DNA of 64,000 nt from Escherichia coli phage NG_S8: the sequence record LC788711.1, one strand, 5' to 3'. Below are positions 37,940 to 41,850 of the stretch, one piece after another (the stretch's first letter is position 1; each line of letters begins with the position of its first letter). The position numbers were made by a program, and so were the translations under genes. The notes beneath the pieces were generated by a model. That model was not told the DNA's origin. It ran no database searches and was given only the letters and a program-made list of their open reading frames with translations.

Positions 37940-38382
37940 TTAAAATTAAACTAACTCATCCAGATTGCATGCCGAAAATTGGTTCTGATGATGCCGCAGG
38001 TATGGATCTGCGTGCATTCTTTGGTACTAACCTTGCGGCAGATTTACGTGCTATTGCACCAGGCAAATCCCTTATGATCGACACCGGTGTCGCGGTGGAA
38101 ATTCCGCGAGGTTGGTTTGGTTTGGTAGTTCCTCGCAGCTCTTTAGGTAAGCGTAAACTGATGATCGCAAACACCGCAGGAGTGATCGACTCAGACTACC
38201 GTGGTACTATTAAGATGAACCTGTTTAACTACGGTTCTGAAATGCAAACTCTGGAGAATTTCGAGAGACTTTGTCAGCTAGTGGTACTACCACACTACTC
38301 AACCCATCATTTTGAAATCGTTGACGAACTAGAGGAGACTGATCGTGGAGAAGGCGGCTTTGGAAGCTCAGGAAGTAAGTAA
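37936..38382 (+). CDS. dut: dUTPase
   Basis: AAGMDL, VIDSDYRG, C-terminal GGFGSSG; 148 aa. Confidence 0.9.
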   Translation: MIKIKLTHPDCMPKIGSDDAAGMDLRAFFGTNLAADLRAIAPGKSLMIDTGVAVEIPRGWFGLVVPRSSLGKRKLMIANTAGVIDSDYRGTIKMNLFNYGSEMQTLENFERLCQLVVLPHYSTHHFEIVDELEETDRGEGGFGSSGSK

Positions 38383-38611
38383 TTTTGCTGATCCTAATAT
38401 GGTAGGGGTAGATGTAGACCAACCTAATTTTTGCAAGATTGATATTAAATACGTTGAACCTGAGAAAATAGTATTGAGGGTTGATGTATCTGGTGTAGTA
38501 GAACAGTGGGATGAAGAAGGATTTATCGCACTTTGCACTGAATCTCAAGATCATATGCTTAAAGCCATGCTAGCAGTATATAACTTAGGTAGTATTGCAG
38601 GTAGTAGATAA
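38345..38611 (+). CDS. hypothetical protein (start uncertain)
   Basis: 88 aa track ORF overlapping the dut 3' end; last plus-strand ORF before the convergent terminator. Confidence 0.35.
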   Translation: MEKAALEAQEVSNFADPNMVGVDVDQPNFCKIDIKYVEPEKIVLRVDVSGVVEQWDEEGFIALCTESQDHMLKAMLAVYNLGSIAGSR

Positions 38612-38618
38612 TAATAAA

Positions 38619-38650
38619 CCCCAGTGGACAATCCACTGGGGTTTTCTCTT
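38619..38650. terminator. bidirectional intrinsic terminator between convergent early and late transcription
   Basis: CCCCAGTGGA-CAA-TCCACTGGGG followed by TTTTCTCTT on the plus strand and by TTTATTATTAT on the minus strand. Confidence 0.8.
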
Positions 38651-38694
38651 ATTTAGTAAGGAGTTGTTTTACTAATTCCTTTATTTTATTAATC

Positions 38695-38710
38695 TTTTTT
38701 TTTTTTTTTT
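38695..38710. repeat. T16 homopolymer tract
   Basis: 16 consecutive T on the plus strand in the non-coding region. Confidence 0.95.
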
Positions 38711-38734
38711 GAGAGGATGCAAAACGAACCTCTT

Positions 38735-38762
38735 GCATTTTGCATTTTGCATTTTGCGTTTT
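38735..38762. repeat. tandem heptamer repeat (TGCATTT) x4, last copy degenerate
   Basis: TGCATTT TGCATTT TGCATTT TGCGTTT; an upstream ATGCAAAA forms an inverted repeat with the array. Confidence 0.9.
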
Positions 38763-38898
38763 CATATTGTACATAAGAACAGCCTAAGAATCAGCGAACT
38801 GTTAACATAGCAGAACACGCGTTGCGTTGCTAGGATAATCAATGTTCAGGCTTGTTTCGCAGCAATATTTTTCAGTGACAGATTGCACTCCACTTATA

Positions 38899-41850
38899 TT
38901 ACGGTAGTTCTGTAATTGTTGGAGCATTTCCGTTAAGCATTGATTTTACAAGATTTTTCAGTTCATATAACTCATTGCGTAATACGTTAATTTCCTCCTG
39001 TTGATTATCAATCTTTGCTTTTTGCTCTTTGAATGCGTTAACAAGAAGTGCGACAACACCATTATAGTTAATGCCTTTGATTGCCTCGCCTTTTGGGTCT
39101 AGCTGACCATCGTTATTCAAAGAATGAACCGCTTCCGGCAAAACCCTTTCAACATCTTGTGCGATCAATCCAGCCTCAATACTATAAACGCTGTTTTCAT
39201 CTTCAATTAGATTGTTGCGCTTGTAGTAAGTATAACCAGTTAGATAATCAATTTTGTCGGATGCCGTTTCGATCTCTTTTAGATGTGCTTTTAATCTAAT
39301 GTCAGACCTGCTAACCCAATTTGATGCGCTACCATTTCCAGCACTATCAAAAATAAATTCAGCGCCCTTAACATAAAGATGTGTTTCAGCGCCGCCAGAA
39401 GTCCACGGAACAACATCCATGCCAGCTATCCAATCTTTCCCCCAATAAACAGATTTAAATATGGCAACCGCAGAATCAAATCCAATGTGCTCAACAAGCA
39501 ATCCAGACGCACGACTACGCCAGTCGGCAAATGAACCACCCTCAACTTGACCAGCAATAAGAGCGTTTGGATCACCGCGCCTAACTCCATTTACATACAT
39601 ACCCCTTGCGTTATCATCAACATAAGATGATATGACCCTGTAAGTGTTTATTCCTGATGGAGTCCATGCAAATATTCTCGCTGAATCAGCAAACGCGCTT
39701 ATGTGACCATCACGATCCCATTTAAGACCTGAATCATAATCCCCAATTGCTATAGAGTAATCACCAAGAGCCGATTGAGCATCCGGACTTAATAACATCA
39801 ATTGCCTATCAGATCTTGCTATCCTGTACCATCCACCCCAAGAGCCAGCACTGCAAATGATACCCCATTTATTACCGTTCATTGTGGTTGCAACAATATT
39901 TCCATACTCAACATGACCGTTTGCATTTTTACCGTGAACATGCAATTCATACATCCACCAACCAGAGGCTTCAGGTGGTTGATATGTAACAAGTTCTCCA
40001 CTTGAGTAATAACCGCTTTCTGCGTATGTTGACATAAACCCAAGAATGTTTGAATTATCAGGAATAATAATTGCTTGACCACCAACAGGAGTATTTAAGT
40101 TCTTTCTTGCTCCAACTTCAGTATTAGATCCAGTGCCGCCAGCATCAATTGAAAGAGGAATCCATCTTCCAGTTTCATCAGTCCAAACACCCCACGCCGC
40201 ATCAGGTCTAATTGTGATTCGATAAGGTGAGTTACTCCCTGGTGCATACATCATAGTTTCTGTTTCTGTTTGCTTTAAACGATCAATGCCAAAGTTTATT
40301 TTTGCGCCCTCAACGTTTTCAGCACCAGTACCGCCAGCACCAATAGAAAGCGCAGATGTGCTGTTATTGTCATTACGCGCAACGCGCCATTCCCCATTGT
40401 TAGCGATCCGTAATTCATAAGTCCATGCAGGATTACGAAAAGAATTATAAGCGCCAGCATATTGATCTTTTACAGAATTAACAGCCTCAACTTTTAGCGC
40501 CTCCCTTGCAAGGTCTTTGTTTGCAAGATCATTAAGGTTCTGATCCTTCTTTAACGACGCTTGCATAACCTGTTCTGCTGATGCAGCCGCTGTCTCCGCT
40601 CTATCTGCTGCACTGGTGGCATTAGTAGCTTTCTCTCCTGCTATTGTAGCGCTACCAGCGGCCTCCAGGGCCTTGTCTGTTGCTGTCGTTGCAGCAGTAG
40701 TGGCGGTATTTTTAAATACCTCTGCTTCGTCTCTGTAGCCTTTGGTTGTGGTCATCGCTTGCGTAGCTGTATTCGCACTACCTGATGCACTTTGCTGAGC
40801 TAGCTTAGCAGCGTCTTCACTAGCTTTTGAGTTAATTTCACTAGTCTTTGTATTAGTTTCTGAGTTTTTTGCTGCTAATGCTGATGTGGAGGCTTGTGCA
40901 GCGAATGCTTCTGCTTCATCCCTGAATCCTTTGGAGTCAGAAGCAGAGGCAGCGGAATCAGCAGCATTAGTCTCACTAGTTTTTGTTGCTGCTGCATATG
41001 CTGCTGCATTAGTCTCACTAGTTTTTGCATTAGTCTCACTAGTTTTTGCATTAATCTCACTAGTTTTTGCTGCAGCTGATGATTCTATAGCAGTAGTTTC
41101 ACTAATTTTTGCTGCAGCTGATGATTCTGCAGCTTTAGTAGCGGATGCAGCAGATTGAGAAGCAGAAATAGCAGACTGAGAAGCAGAAGCTTCAGAAGCT
41201 TCAGCAGAAATAGCAGATTCATTCTCAGAATTCTTAGCATTAAGTTCTGAAGTCTTAGCAGCTATCTCGGAGTCTTTTGCAGTAGTAGCGTATTCTCCCG
41301 CCTCTGTAGCAGAACCAGCAGCAGCAATAGCCTGATTGGTAGACTCAGTAGCAGATGTAGCAGCATTTTGTTCAGAAGTAGCAGCAGCAGTCTTAGCAGC
41401 CTCAGCGTCCTTCTTAGCTTGTTCAGCTAATAGACGACTCTGTTCAGCATTTTGTGCAGCAAGTTCAGCAGAATCACGGAATCCTTTGGATTCCTCAGCT
41501 GACGTAGCAGAGGCATCAGCACTATCTTTAGATAAACCAGCTTGTCTCTCCGCTTCAGTAGCAGAAGCAGCAGATTGAGTTGCAGAAGTTTCTGAAGAGT
41601 TAGCGTAAATTGCAGCTAGGTTCTCCGAGTCCTTAGCATTTGTTTCAGATTCTTTTGCTGCAATTTCAGAATCTTTTGCTGCCGCAGCAGAAGCAGCAGA
41701 GGCCTCAACAGCCCCTGTTAGTTCACTAGCAGTAATAGAACTAATAGAAGTACCTAAAACTACCGTATACTTAGGATATTTACTAGCAGTAGTTGTAGTG
41801 TCATCTATGTTCAGAATCTGCTGTACAATAATTTTAGTTTTAAGTGCCAT
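38899..41850 (-). CDS. ltf: L-shaped (side) tail fibre with C-terminal intramolecular chaperone domain
   Basis: 983 aa; Ala/Ser/Thr-rich repetitive N-terminal shaft; C-terminal SDIRLKAHLKEIE...GLIAQDVERVLPEAV matches the auto-cleaving peptidase S74 chaperone domain. Confidence 0.85.
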   Translation of the reverse strand: MALKTKIIVQQILNIDDTTTTASKYPKYTVVLGTSISSITASELTGAVEASAASAAAAKDSEIAAKESETNAKDSENLAAIYANSSETSATQSAASATEAERQAGLSKDSADASATSAEESKGFRDSAELAAQNAEQSRLLAEQAKKDAEAAKTAAATSEQNAATSATESTNQAIAAAGSATEAGEYATTAKDSEIAAKTSELNAKNSENESAISAEASEASASQSAISASQSAASATKAAESSAAAKISETTAIESSAAAKTSEINAKTSETNAKTSETNAAAYAAATKTSETNAADSAASASDSKGFRDEAEAFAAQASTSALAAKNSETNTKTSEINSKASEDAAKLAQQSASGSANTATQAMTTTKGYRDEAEVFKNTATTAATTATDKALEAAGSATIAGEKATNATSAADRAETAAASAEQVMQASLKKDQNLNDLANKDLAREALKVEAVNSVKDQYAGAYNSFRNPAWTYELRIANNGEWRVARNDNNSTSALSIGAGGTGAENVEGAKINFGIDRLKQTETETMMYAPGSNSPYRITIRPDAAWGVWTDETGRWIPLSIDAGGTGSNTEVGARKNLNTPVGGQAIIIPDNSNILGFMSTYAESGYYSSGELVTYQPPEASGWWMYELHVHGKNANGHVEYGNIVATTMNGNKWGIICSAGSWGGWYRIARSDRQLMLLSPDAQSALGDYSIAIGDYDSGLKWDRDGHISAFADSARIFAWTPSGINTYRVISSYVDDNARGMYVNGVRRGDPNALIAGQVEGGSFADWRSRASGLLVEHIGFDSAVAIFKSVYWGKDWIAGMDVVPWTSGGAETHLYVKGAEFIFDSAGNGSASNWVSRSDIRLKAHLKEIETASDKIDYLTGYTYYKRNNLIEDENSVYSIEAGLIAQDVERVLPEAVHSLNNDGQLDPKGEAIKGINYNGVVALLVNAFKEQKAKIDNQQEEINVLRNELYELKNLVKSMLNGNAPTITELP
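41006..41068 (-). repeat. 3 tandem copies of a 21 bp unit inside ltf, plus a second 23 bp direct repeat at 41064-41086 and 41106-41128
   Basis: GCATTAGTCTCACTAGTTTTT x3 (third copy with one change); encodes TSETNAK heptad repeats. Confidence 0.9.

What the first reader, a model, noticed from the sequence alone, without database searches (positions are those of the whole stretch)
38612..38898. Early/late convergence zone: bidirectional terminator, T16 tract and (TGCATTT)x4
After the bidirectional terminator (38619-38650), 250 bp of non-coding DNA separate it from the ltf stop. It contains a 16 nt T homopolymer (38695-38710), four tandem TGCATTT heptamers (38735-38762) and an ATGCAAAA/TTTTGCAT inverted repeat. 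Late transcripts would carry this as a 3' UTR with an A16 run. Candidate roles are a protein-binding array, a DNA-unwinding element, or a slippage-prone site.
Basis: seen in the sequence. Interest (0 to 1): 0.5.

Follow-up and report, generated by a model that had tools for sequence, protein, structure and literature searches.

The report
Dead gene relics behind tail-fibre gene
The 250-bp "non-coding" spacer between the early genes and the tail-fibre gene of this T5-like Salmonella phage is a recombination scar made of two dead gene fragments, and its T16 run and heptamer repeats are slippage-prone junk that varies between isolates rather than a regulatory element.

Summary
The window is an EPS7-like (Epseptimavirus, T5-like) phage. 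The described features are real: a 13-bp terminator hairpin at 38616-38644, a T16 run at 38695-38710, and TTGCATT x3 plus TTGCGTT at 38733-38762. Both repeats are unique in the 64 kb.

The spacer is not primary non-coding DNA. On the minus strand, 38711-38888 is a relic of codons 145-199 of a ~233-aa gene (PHROG 9288). That gene sits intact just downstream of the lateral tail-fibre gene in small siphoviruses, mostly T1-like. The relic has two in-frame stops. 38649-38693 is a relic of the last 14 codons plus the stop of a native LtfB-type fibre gene, which in other T5-like phages abuts the terminator.

The T-run lies exactly at the junction of the two relics. The heptamer array is an expansion of former codons (MKAQLQE).

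In the 13 EPS7-clade relatives aligned, every indel in 901 bp falls in the T-run (T10-T22) or the heptamer array (3 or 4 units). More distant relatives have T4-T7 and two units, or no spacer at all.

Verdict: this is a tail-fibre cassette-exchange scar carried as the ltf 3' UTR. "Slippage-prone" is supported; "protein-binding array" and "unwinding element" are not. Interest is low.

The parts
38345..38611 (+). Last early-side ORF (88 aa, PHROG 5592, unknown function). Its stop lies 5 nt before the terminator hairpin. Listed as context.
   Evidence: Annotated as a hypothetical protein (VOG3976) in relatives.
38616..38644 (.). Bidirectional intrinsic-terminator hairpin (13 bp, 7 G-C, 3-nt loop). 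AAA on the 5' side and TTT on the 3' side give a U-run on either strand.
   Evidence: scores both strands. Seafire annotates a terminator on both strands here. It is conserved in all T5-like loci examined, including those without the spacer.
38649..38693 (-). Relic of the stop codon (38649-38651) plus the last 14 codons of a native LtfB-type lateral tail-fibre gene. The window's minus frame reads INKIKELVKQLLTK*.
   Evidence: One search aligns it with the intact fibre C-termini ..EIDELKKLVKQLLAK* (UTK0009) and ..EIDELKELVKQLLAK* (EscoHU1 LtfB), whose stop codons occupy the same position next to the hairpin. In one search, query positions 1-105 match at 81-87% inside annotated tail-fibre CDSs of other T5-like phages.
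38695..38710 (.). T16 homopolymer (A16 on the late-transcript strand) at the junction between the two relics. Its length is hypervariable.
   Evidence: Lengths in relatives range from 4-7 up to 22. Homology to the PHROG 9288 gene stops at the TCTCAG just right of it, and the stretch on its left shows no homology to that gene's 3' end.
38711..38888 (-). Relic of codons ~145-199 of a PHROG 9288 gene. The gene encodes ~233 aa and is intact downstream of the lateral tail-fibre gene in small siphoviruses such as Drexlerviridae. The relic has in-frame stops at 38802-38804 and 38784-38786 and a 15-nt insertion.
   Evidence: tblastn gives 53-55% identity and E 7e-15 to 3e-14 against vojen_58, KLB26 MVRO031 and SP36_56. 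blastn gives 75-80% identity to these genes. Multiple alignment. The same two stops occur in the gmork-group pseudogene.
38733..38762 (.). Heptamer array TTGCATT x3 + TTGCGTT (+TT). On the minus strand it reads AAAACGC + AAAATGC x3. It is a slippage expansion of the former codons ...ATG AAA GCG CAA TTG CAA GAG... (MKAQLQE).
   Evidence: There are 2 units in GRNsp8, 8sent65, atrejo and the gmork group, 3 in fuchur and PSa2, and 4 in the window clade.
38889..38898 (.). A 10-nt junction between the present fibre gene's stop codon and the start of detectable homology to the PHROG 9288 relic.
38899..41850 (-). Present lateral tail-fibre gene (983 aa). The N-terminus is T5 Ltf-like. Residues 505-983 are 57-70% identical to Drexlerviridae lateral tail fibres. 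Listed as context and as part of the exchanged cassette.

Best explanation
The spacer is a recombination scar at the hypervariable lateral tail-fibre locus of an EPS7-like phage. It is not a dedicated regulatory element.

Inferred history:
1. An ancestral Epseptimavirus had a native LtfB-type fibre gene ending a few nt from the bidirectional terminator.
2. A foreign cassette from a small T1-like siphovirus (fibre gene plus the downstream PHROG 9288 gene) replaced most of it. The right-hand junction fell at about codon 199 of the PHROG 9288 gene and about 15 codons before the end of the old fibre gene. This left a truncated, dead PHROG 9288 copy and a 45-nt tail of the old fibre gene.
3. The dead copy picked up stop codons that are shared by both descendant lineages.
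4. In the EPS7 lineage a second fibre replacement brought in the present 983-aa fibre and removed the first ~143 codons of the pseudogene.
5. With no coding constraint, replication slippage expanded two seeds. A short T-run at the junction grew from T4-T7 to T10-T22. A pair of adjacent near-identical heptamers grew from 2 to 3-4 units.

What is shown and what is inferred:
- Shown: the homologies, the disrupted frames, the synteny, the positions of the repeats relative to the relics, the inter-isolate length variation, and the absence of the spacer in other T5-like phages.
- Inferred: the order of events, slippage as the mechanism, lack of function, and that the tract is transcribed as the ltf 3' UTR up to the hairpin.
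For: - Identity of the phage: 99.9% to Salmonella phage JN-S202001, an Epseptimavirus.
- PHROG 9288 relic: window 38754-38892 matches genes of unrelated Drexlerviridae at 75-80%. These genes lie directly downstream of the tail-fibre gene. tblastn gives E 3e-14 with two in-frame stops and a 5-aa insertion that is the heptamer array. The alignment shows the array is an expansion of coding sequence and the A-tract sits where homology ends.
- Family: PHROG 9288, E 6e-124.
- Donor direction: intact copies come only from contigs of 72 kb or less. No T5-like record covers more than 67% of the protein (rokbiter, residues 62-217 at 39.6% identity), and every T5-like copy examined is interrupted by in-frame stops or truncated.
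- Cassette link: the present fibre's distal half is 57-70% identical to Drexlerviridae fibres.
- Second relic: INKIKELVKQLLTK* versus intact LtfB ends, with the stop codon at the same place. Fibre genes abut the terminator in other T5-like loci.
- Timing: the stops are shared with the gmork-type pseudogene, which sits behind a different 755-aa fibre.
- Variation: all indels among 13 close relatives fall in the T-run or the array. Short T4-T7 runs and 2 units occur in divergent relatives.
- Uniqueness: both repeats are unique in 64 kb.
- No RNA function detected: no Rfam family at threshold. No unusual RNA folding once the terminator is removed, z = -1.35. No promoter-like site in the spacer.
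Against: - The relic is retained in two fibre lineages. It is 94% identical between the window and GRNsp8/8sent65, which is higher than third-codon-position identity of the adjacent fibre 3' end (77-84%). This could hint at constraint, but the locus is mosaic, so segment ages differ and the test is inconclusive.
- All 16 EPS7-clade records examined keep a long T-run (10 or more), which might reflect selection rather than mutational bias.
- Part of the T-run length variation may be sequencing or assembly error in homopolymers. No reads were available.
- Transcription through the spacer and termination at the hairpin were not measured.
Confidence: 0.8

Rival explanations
1. Exapted 3' UTR element. 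The length-variable A-run, the heptamers or the AGAGG...CCUCU hairpin in the ltf transcript tune mRNA stability or fibre dosage. T-run length would then act as a heritable, quickly mutating rheostat, similar to a contingency locus.
For: The tract lies between the fibre stop codon and the only terminator. T-run length differs between genomes with zero substitutions in 901 bp, namely JN-S202001 (T17) and BD13 (T22). All EPS7-clade genomes examined keep a run of 10 or more.
Against: The run is not in a promoter or reading frame, where known contingency repeats act. Relatives with T4-T7, or with no spacer at all, are viable isolates. The UTR shows no significant structure without the terminator. 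Variation may be partly technical.
Confidence: 0.08
2. One reading: a protein-binding repeat array and/or an AT-rich DNA-unwinding element (origin-like or regulatory site) at the early/late boundary.
For: There are four tandem heptamers with an inverted partner next to an extreme T-run. Both are statistically unique in the window.
Against: The heptamers are expanded codons of a pseudogene. Their number varies from 2 to 4 and their sequence drifts (TTGCACT, TTGTATT, TTGTGTT, TTGAATT). The whole tract is absent from other Epseptimavirus and Tequintavirus-like genomes that share the flanking genes and the terminator. The period of 7 bp, contiguous, does not place sites on one helical face. Binding was not testable here.
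Confidence: 0.03
3. The spacer encodes small proteins. The 41-aa ORFs 38649-38774(-) and 38802-38927(-) are annotated in some relatives as hypothetical proteins or as 'tail fiber protein'.
For: ORFs are listed. Similar ORFs are annotated in BSP22A, BD13, NBSal002 and SuperGirl.
Against: They are the residual frames of the two relics. ORF 38649-38774 reads through the A-run (KKKKK), so its C-terminus changes with every T-run length. Annotated lengths differ between near-identical genomes (105, 120, 129, 132 nt). No Shine-Dalgarno sequence is evident before either ATG. Many records annotate nothing here.
Confidence: 0.03
4. The length polymorphism is purely a sequencing or assembly artefact. The T-run is stable and the heptamer number is fixed.
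For: Homopolymers of 10 or more are error-prone on most platforms. Differences of +/-1 (window T16, JN-S202001 T17, faergetype T15) are within the error range.
Against: The range is T10-T22 in the clade and T4-T7 in relatives where the run is interrupted by other bases. Whole-unit (7-nt) differences in fuchur and PSa2, and the diverged 95-bp duplicate in bobsandoy, cannot be homopolymer miscalls.
Confidence: 0.06

Closest known systems
Mosaic junction scars and gene relics at phage tail-fibre loci. Own knowledge: horizontal exchange of tail-fibre segments among unrelated phages, Haggard-Ljungquist et al. 1992 and Sandmeier 1994. T5-like ltf locus diversity: Golomidova et al. 2016, PMC4728585; Maffei et al. 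2021, PMC8594841.
   Same: The fibre locus is variable and flanked by conserved DNA. The distal fibre half is shared with an unrelated phage family. Leftover fragments of replaced genes lie at the junctions. PMC8594841 reports high identity upstream and downstream of the ltf locus with a sharp drop inside it, both in Markadamsvirinae and in small siphoviruses. PMC4728585 calls the ltf locus a potential mutation hot spot through recombination.
   Different: I did not find these two nested relics (LtfB tail plus PHROG 9288 fragment), or their simple-repeat expansions, described in those papers or in the GenBank annotations. The annotations call them repeat_region, hypothetical protein or nothing.
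Hypermutable simple-sequence tracts (bacterial contingency loci; homopolymer or heptanucleotide phase-variation repeats). Own knowledge.
   Same: A long homopolymer and a short-unit tandem repeat change length between near-identical genomes much faster than substitutions accrue.
   Different: The tracts are not in a promoter or an open reading frame of a live gene, so no on/off switch is evident. They lie in dead DNA in a 3' UTR.
Bidirectional Rho-independent terminators between convergent operons. Own knowledge.
   Same: A G+C-rich hairpin is flanked by A-run and T-run between convergent genes. It is conserved across T5-like phages and annotated as a terminator on both strands in Seafire.
   Different: On the late (minus) strand the U-tract is interrupted (UUUAUUAUUAU). 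Activity has not been measured.
PreQ1-I riboswitch aptamer (Rfam RF00522)
   Same: The minus-strand AGAGGUUCGU...CCUCU hairpin followed by an A-run resembles the P1 stem and A-rich tail.
   Different: It scores 24.5 bits against a gathering score of 39. The conserved CUA of the tail is missing. The hit disappears in relatives with short A-runs. Nothing lies downstream to regulate. This is a chance resemblance.

Membership tests
Gene relic (pseudogene fragment) of PHROG 9288 | Statistically significant sequence homology to intact family members | tested here: met
   tblastn E 7e-15 to 3e-14 with 53-55% identity over 55-60 codons. blastn 75-80% identity. The intact query matches PHROG 9288 at 6e-124.
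Gene relic (pseudogene fragment) of PHROG 9288 | Reading frame disrupted or truncated | tested here: met
   Only codons ~145-199 of ~233 remain. There are two in-frame stops and a 15-nt insertion.
Gene relic (pseudogene fragment) of PHROG 9288 | Conserved synteny with the intact gene (directly downstream of a lateral tail-fibre gene) | tested here: met
   The intact gene follows the fibre gene in phage 36, vojen, KLB26 and JakobBernoulli. The relic follows the fibre gene in the window, and the fibre's distal half is homologous to those fibres.
Gene relic of native LtfB-type fibre 3' end | Homology to the C-terminal codons and stop of intact fibre genes, at the same distance from the terminator | tested here: met
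   INKIKELVKQLLTK* versus ..ELKELVKQLLAK*, with the stop codon in the same column next to the hairpin. Identity is 81-87% at DNA level inside annotated fibre CDSs. The match is short (45 nt), so statistical support comes mainly from the blastn hits that also include the terminator.
Bidirectional intrinsic terminator | G+C-rich stem-loop followed by a U-run on each strand, between convergent genes | tested here: met
   13-bp stem with 7 G-C. Tails are TCTCTTATTT (+) and ATTATTATCT (-) after the flanking TTT. The genes are convergent.
Bidirectional intrinsic terminator | Transcripts end at the hairpin in vivo | not testable with these tools
   Needs 3' end mapping such as Term-seq or 3' RACE.
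Contingency (phase-variation) repeat | Repeat length varies between closely related genomes | tested here: met
   T10-T22 and 3-4 heptamers in the EPS7 clade. All indels in 901 bp fall in these two tracts. Sequencing error may contribute to +/-1 differences.
Contingency (phase-variation) repeat | Repeat lies in a promoter spacer or in the reading frame of a functional gene, so that length toggles expression | tested here: not met
   The tracts lie in pseudogene DNA downstream of the fibre stop codon. No promoter-like site is found in the spacer.
Iteron or protein-binding array / origin with DNA-unwinding element | Repeat units conserved in sequence and number among relatives that share the function | tested here: not met
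   Unit number ranges from 2 to 4 and unit sequences drift. The whole tract is absent in many T5-like phages.
Iteron or protein-binding array / origin with DNA-unwinding element | Specific protein binding, or initiation of replication | not testable with these tools
   Needs EMSA, ChIP or origin mapping.
PreQ1-I riboswitch (RF00522) | Score at or above the Rfam gathering threshold, with the conserved tail motif | tested here: not met
   24.5 bits against 39. The tail is pure A without CUA. Scores are 23-26 bits in relatives, with no hit at E<=1 in the relatives scanned that have T4-T7 runs.

The most novel reading that the evidence does not exclude
The long, fast-mutating A/T run, with its neighbouring repeats, is not merely tolerated junk. 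Either it tunes lateral-fibre expression through the ltf 3' UTR in a length-dependent, heritable way, or it acts as a template-switch hot spot that promotes duplication and cassette turnover at the fibre locus. For the second option, the SB9 300-bp and bobsandoy 95-bp duplications both have a boundary at a T-run.
Probability: 0.07. Interest if true: 0.5.

Novelty: new member of a known kind. Interest (0 to 1): 0.2.

Why it matters
- It explains an odd-looking tract. It shows that some small ORFs and 'repeat_region' features annotated here in public EPS7-like genomes are pseudogene debris.
- It records a concrete case of a tail-fibre cassette moving from small T1-like siphoviruses into T5-like phages, followed by a second fibre swap. 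That is useful for reconstructing host-range evolution and for choosing safe junctions when engineering fibres.
- The T-run is a practical caveat for assembly, and a possible strain marker.
- It opens no new mechanism.

Tried and rejected
- Known RNA families: Rfam gave only sub-threshold hits (PreQ1 24.5/39 bits, His_leader, NsiR1, SAM-II). They are driven by the terminator hairpin or by hairpin plus A-run. Rejected.
- Structured 3' UTR: z = -3.57 with the terminator but -1.35 without it. No evidence.
- Promoter in the spacer: none found by the sigma-70 scan. T5 late promoters are not covered by that scan.
- Homology of 38645-38716 to the 3' end of the intact PHROG 9288 gene: no better than shuffles. 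The last ~34 codons are therefore truly missing.
- Neutral-rate test (relic identity versus third-codon positions of neighbours): inconclusive, because neighbouring segments have very different divergences (54-96%). The locus is mosaic.
- Larger sample of independent assemblies: the IMG/VR pattern scan and the metagenome pattern scan each gave 0 hits. An IMG/VR protein-anchored scan gave only 6 loci.
- Function of the intact PHROG 9288 protein: no Pfam domain at threshold and all database names are 'hypothetical'. The AlphaFold model has low confidence (pLDDT 55): one long helix at 53-217 with a disordered Gly-rich N-terminus. No fold search was run.
- Literature searches for a prior description of these relics found none.

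Full report
**What the window is.** A 901-bp stretch around the finding is 99.9% identical to Salmonella phage JN-S202001. It is 97-99.8% identical to dozens of EPS7-like phages (Demerecviridae, Markadamsvirinae, Epseptimavirus). On the + strand, flap endonuclease, dUTPase and an 88-aa ORF (PHROG 5592) end at 38611. On the - strand there is a 983-aa lateral tail fibre (38899-41850), a collar/p132-like gene and a straight-fibre gene.

**Observation check.** The features are all present, with minor corrections.
- The hairpin lies at 38616-38644 (13 bp, 7 G-C). It scores as terminator-like on both strands and is annotated so in phage Seafire.
- T16 is exactly at 38695-38710.
- The heptamer array is 38733-38762, as TTGCATT x3 plus TTGCGTT.
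- T16 is the only homopolymer of 8 or more in the 64 kb, and the maximum in 200 shuffles was 13.
- The array is the only perfect tandem of 3 or more copies with period 6-12, and 0 of 100 shuffles had one.

**The spacer is made of two gene relics.**

*First relic (PHROG 9288).* A sensitive blastn search of the spacer hit unrelated ~41-52 kb siphoviruses of the Drexlerviridae (phage 36, vojen, KLB26, EC147, JLBYU41 and others). Identity was 75-80% over window 38754-38892, always inside a 'hypothetical protein' CDS.
- In those phages the CDS (~233 aa, PHROG 9288) lies directly downstream of the lateral tail-fibre gene.
- tblastn aligns window 38709-38888 (minus strand) to residues 145-199 of that protein (E 3e-14, 53% identity). 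The alignment has two in-frame stop codons and a 5-residue insertion.
- In the multiple alignment that insertion is the heptamer array. The intact genes read ATG AAA GCG CAA TTG CAA GAG (MKAQLQE). A second group of Epseptimaviruses (gmork, vaffelhjerte, rokbiter, SE24) has AAAACAC+AAAATGC. The window has AAAACGC+AAAATGC x3.
- Homology to the gene ends at TCTCAG (Ser-Gln 198-199), immediately next to the A-run.
- The stretch between the A-run and the terminator shows no similarity to the gene's last 34 codons beyond shuffled controls.

*Second relic (LtfB tail).* That last stretch is the second relic. The minus strand of 38649-38693 reads INKIKELVKQLLTK*. Intact LtfB-type fibres of other Epseptimaviruses end ...EIDELKELVKQLLAK* (EscoHU1) or ...EIDELKKLVKQLLAK* (UTK0009). 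Their stop codons sit in the same alignment column, a few nt from the same hairpin.
- blastn had already shown window 38600-38704 matching at 81-87% inside annotated tail-fibre CDSs.
- In STG2-like, HdH2-like and other T5-like loci the fibre stop likewise sits next to the terminator with no spacer.
- The T-run therefore sits exactly at the junction of the two relics.

**Where the cassette came from, and in what order.**
- Residues 505-983 of the window's fibre are 57% identical to the JakobBernoulli lateral fibre and 69-70% identical to that of Salmonella phage 36. The distal fibre half and the downstream gene therefore form a module shared with T1-like phages.
- Intact PHROG 9288 proteins (230 hits, 225-265 aa) come only from contigs of 72 kb or less. 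No T5-like record covers more than 67% of the protein (rokbiter, residues 62-217 at 39.6% identity; the next best reaches 60%). Every T5-like copy examined carries in-frame stops or is truncated.
- The gmork group carries a longer pseudogene behind a different 755-aa fibre. It starts at its own ATG and has a premature TAG at codon 110.
- That pseudogene has the same two stops as the window (LLY*QFADS* versus LLC*QFADS*), the same 3' breakpoint and the same LtfB tail.
- Inference: one ancient insertion of a fibre plus PHROG 9288 cassette into the native fibre gene came first. The insertion truncated the PHROG 9288 gene, which then decayed. A later second fibre replacement in the EPS7 lineage removed the pseudogene's first ~143 codons, so that only 10 nt separate the new stop codon from the relic.

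**Behaviour of the repeats.** T-run lengths in the records examined:

| Group | Phage | T-run |
|---|---|---|
| Divergent relatives | atrejo | T4 |
| Divergent relatives | GRNsp8, 8sent65 (TTAATCTTTTTTACTGAGAGG) | T6 |
| gmork group | vaffelhjerte, rokbiter | T7 |
| gmork group | SE24 | T14 |
| gmork group | gmork | T17 |
| EPS7 clade | BSP22A | T10 |
| EPS7 clade | EPS7 | T11 |
| EPS7 clade | S.Kent 1-2-1 | T12 |
| EPS7 clade | Seafire | T13 |
| EPS7 clade | SH9 | T14 |
| EPS7 clade | faergetype, fuchur, PSa2, bobsandoy | T15 |
| EPS7 clade | window | T16 |
| EPS7 clade | JN-S202001, SuperGirl | T17 |
| EPS7 clade | 1-29, SB9 | T18 |
| EPS7 clade | NBSal002 | T19 |
| EPS7 clade | BD13 | T22 |

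- Heptamer units number 2 in divergent relatives, 3 in fuchur and PSa2, and 4 elsewhere in the clade.
- In pairwise alignments of the 901-bp stretch with 13 clade members, every indel position lies in the T-run or the array and none lies elsewhere. JN-S202001 and BD13 differ from the window only by T-run length.
- bobsandoy has a 95-bp diverged extra copy of T-run plus array, with TTGAATT x3. SB9 has a 300-bp tandem duplication whose junction is at a TTAAT(C/T)TTT microhomology next to a T-run.
- Some +/-1 differences may be homopolymer sequencing error. Whole-unit changes and the duplications cannot be.

**Tests of functional alternatives.**
- Rfam finds nothing at threshold. The best hit is PreQ1 at 24.5 bits against a gathering score of 39. 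It is a hairpin followed by the A-run, it lacks the CUA tail, and it vanishes in relatives with short runs.
- The late-strand RNA folds no better than shuffles once the terminator is excluded (z -1.35, against -3.57 with it).
- No sigma-70-like promoter lies in the spacer.
- The small ORFs that some records annotate here are the residual frames of the relics. One runs through the A-run, so its end changes with run length.
- A rate comparison was inconclusive because the locus is mosaic. Relic identity to GRNsp8 and 8sent65 is 94%, fibre third positions are 77-84%, and orf88 third positions are 54-57%.

**Most likely mechanism.** The tract is a non-functional scar transcribed as the 3' UTR of the fibre mRNA and ended by the conserved bidirectional hairpin. 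With coding constraint gone, slippage on a short T-run and on two adjacent near-identical heptamers produced the T16 run and the 4-unit array.
- Confidence that the spacer consists of these two relics: about 0.9.
- Confidence in the whole statement, including lack of function: about 0.8.
- Shown: the homologies, the frame disruption, the synteny, the repeat positions, the variation between isolates, and absence of the spacer in relatives.
- Inferred: the order of events, the slippage mechanism, transcription and termination, and lack of function.

**Comparison with what is known.** High diversity and recombination at the lateral tail-fibre locus of T5-like phages and small siphoviruses, with conserved flanks, is established (PMC8594841; PMC4728585). 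Horizontal exchange of fibre segments between unrelated phages is classical (own knowledge). This is one more instance of that kind. I found no prior description of these particular relics. Public annotations label them repeat_region, hypothetical protein, 'tail fiber protein' or nothing.

**Verdict.** The feature is ordinary: a new member of a known kind, interest about 0.2.

Noticed in passing
L004 (Salmonella phage SB9) about 1885-1915, aligned to window 38689-38716: In SB9's terminator-proximal copy, the segment TAATC-T16-GAGAGG is replaced by ATTAG-A17-CTCTCC. That is the base-by-base complement, not the reverse complement, of the usual sequence. An inversion cannot produce this. It looks like an assembly or editing artefact, or an unusual template switch.
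   Followed up: partly
L004 (SB9) 1800-2460: There is a 300-bp tandem duplication covering the T-run, the PHROG 9288 relic and the last ~33 codons of the fibre gene. Its junction is at a TTAAT(C/T)TTT microhomology. The 57-aa CDS SB9_022 is the duplicated fibre 3' end.
   Followed up: partly
L003 (phage bobsandoy) about 1890-2000: There is an extra 95-bp diverged copy of T-run plus heptamer array. All three units carry the same C-to-A change (TTGAATT x3), and the rest is AT-enriched. This suggests independent or concerted expansion after duplication.
   Followed up: partly
L008-L010 (vaffelhjerte, gmork, rokbiter) 1136-1950: A different 755-aa fibre is followed by its own terminator-like hairpin, a promoter-like stretch and a PHROG 9288 homologue with a premature TAG at codon 110. 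The N-terminal 109-110 aa ORF is annotated as a gene. rokbiter has an internal Gly-rich repeat duplication. Whether the truncated ORF is still expressed is unknown.
   Followed up: partly
PHROG 9288 family (e.g. vojen_58; proteins P0001-P0120): This is a conserved ~232-aa protein encoded next to lateral tail-fibre genes in small siphoviruses. It has a Gly-rich, probably disordered N-terminus, one predicted long helix (53-217), an invariant CCC motif and a C-terminal PTPPTGCC tail. It has no Pfam domain or functional name. BASEL annotates part of it as 'putative sugar-binding protein'.
   Followed up: partly
L016 (IMG/VR contig of 109,306 bp) about 1800-2021: Another T5-like genome has a different ~220-nt spacer, with a second hairpin, between the conserved terminator and its fibre stop codon. 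This suggests relic accumulation at this position is recurrent. It was not analysed further.
   Followed up: no
window 38345-38611 versus L025/L026: The 88-aa early ORF next to the terminator is only 65-67% identical between the window and GRNsp8/8sent65. The adjacent dUTPase gene is 98% identical. There is therefore a sharp mosaic boundary on the early side too.
   Followed up: no
window 38696-38738 (-): There is a sub-threshold PreQ1 riboswitch-like match (24.5 bits against gathering score 39). It is created by substitutions in the pseudogene that formed an AGAGG/CCUCU hairpin next to the A-run. Judged a chance resemblance.
   Followed up: yes
L025 (GRNsp8) 870-1481 and L021 (EPS7, NC_010583) 600-1096: GRNsp8's fibre gene is annotated as frameshifted into two CDSs. 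The EPS7 reference record has no CDS annotated over the fibre 3' end within the stretch fetched.
   Followed up: no
window 38112-38126: There is a perfect TTGGT x3 pentamer repeat inside the dUTPase gene. It is the only other perfect tandem of 3 or more copies with period 4-12 in the window.
   Followed up: no
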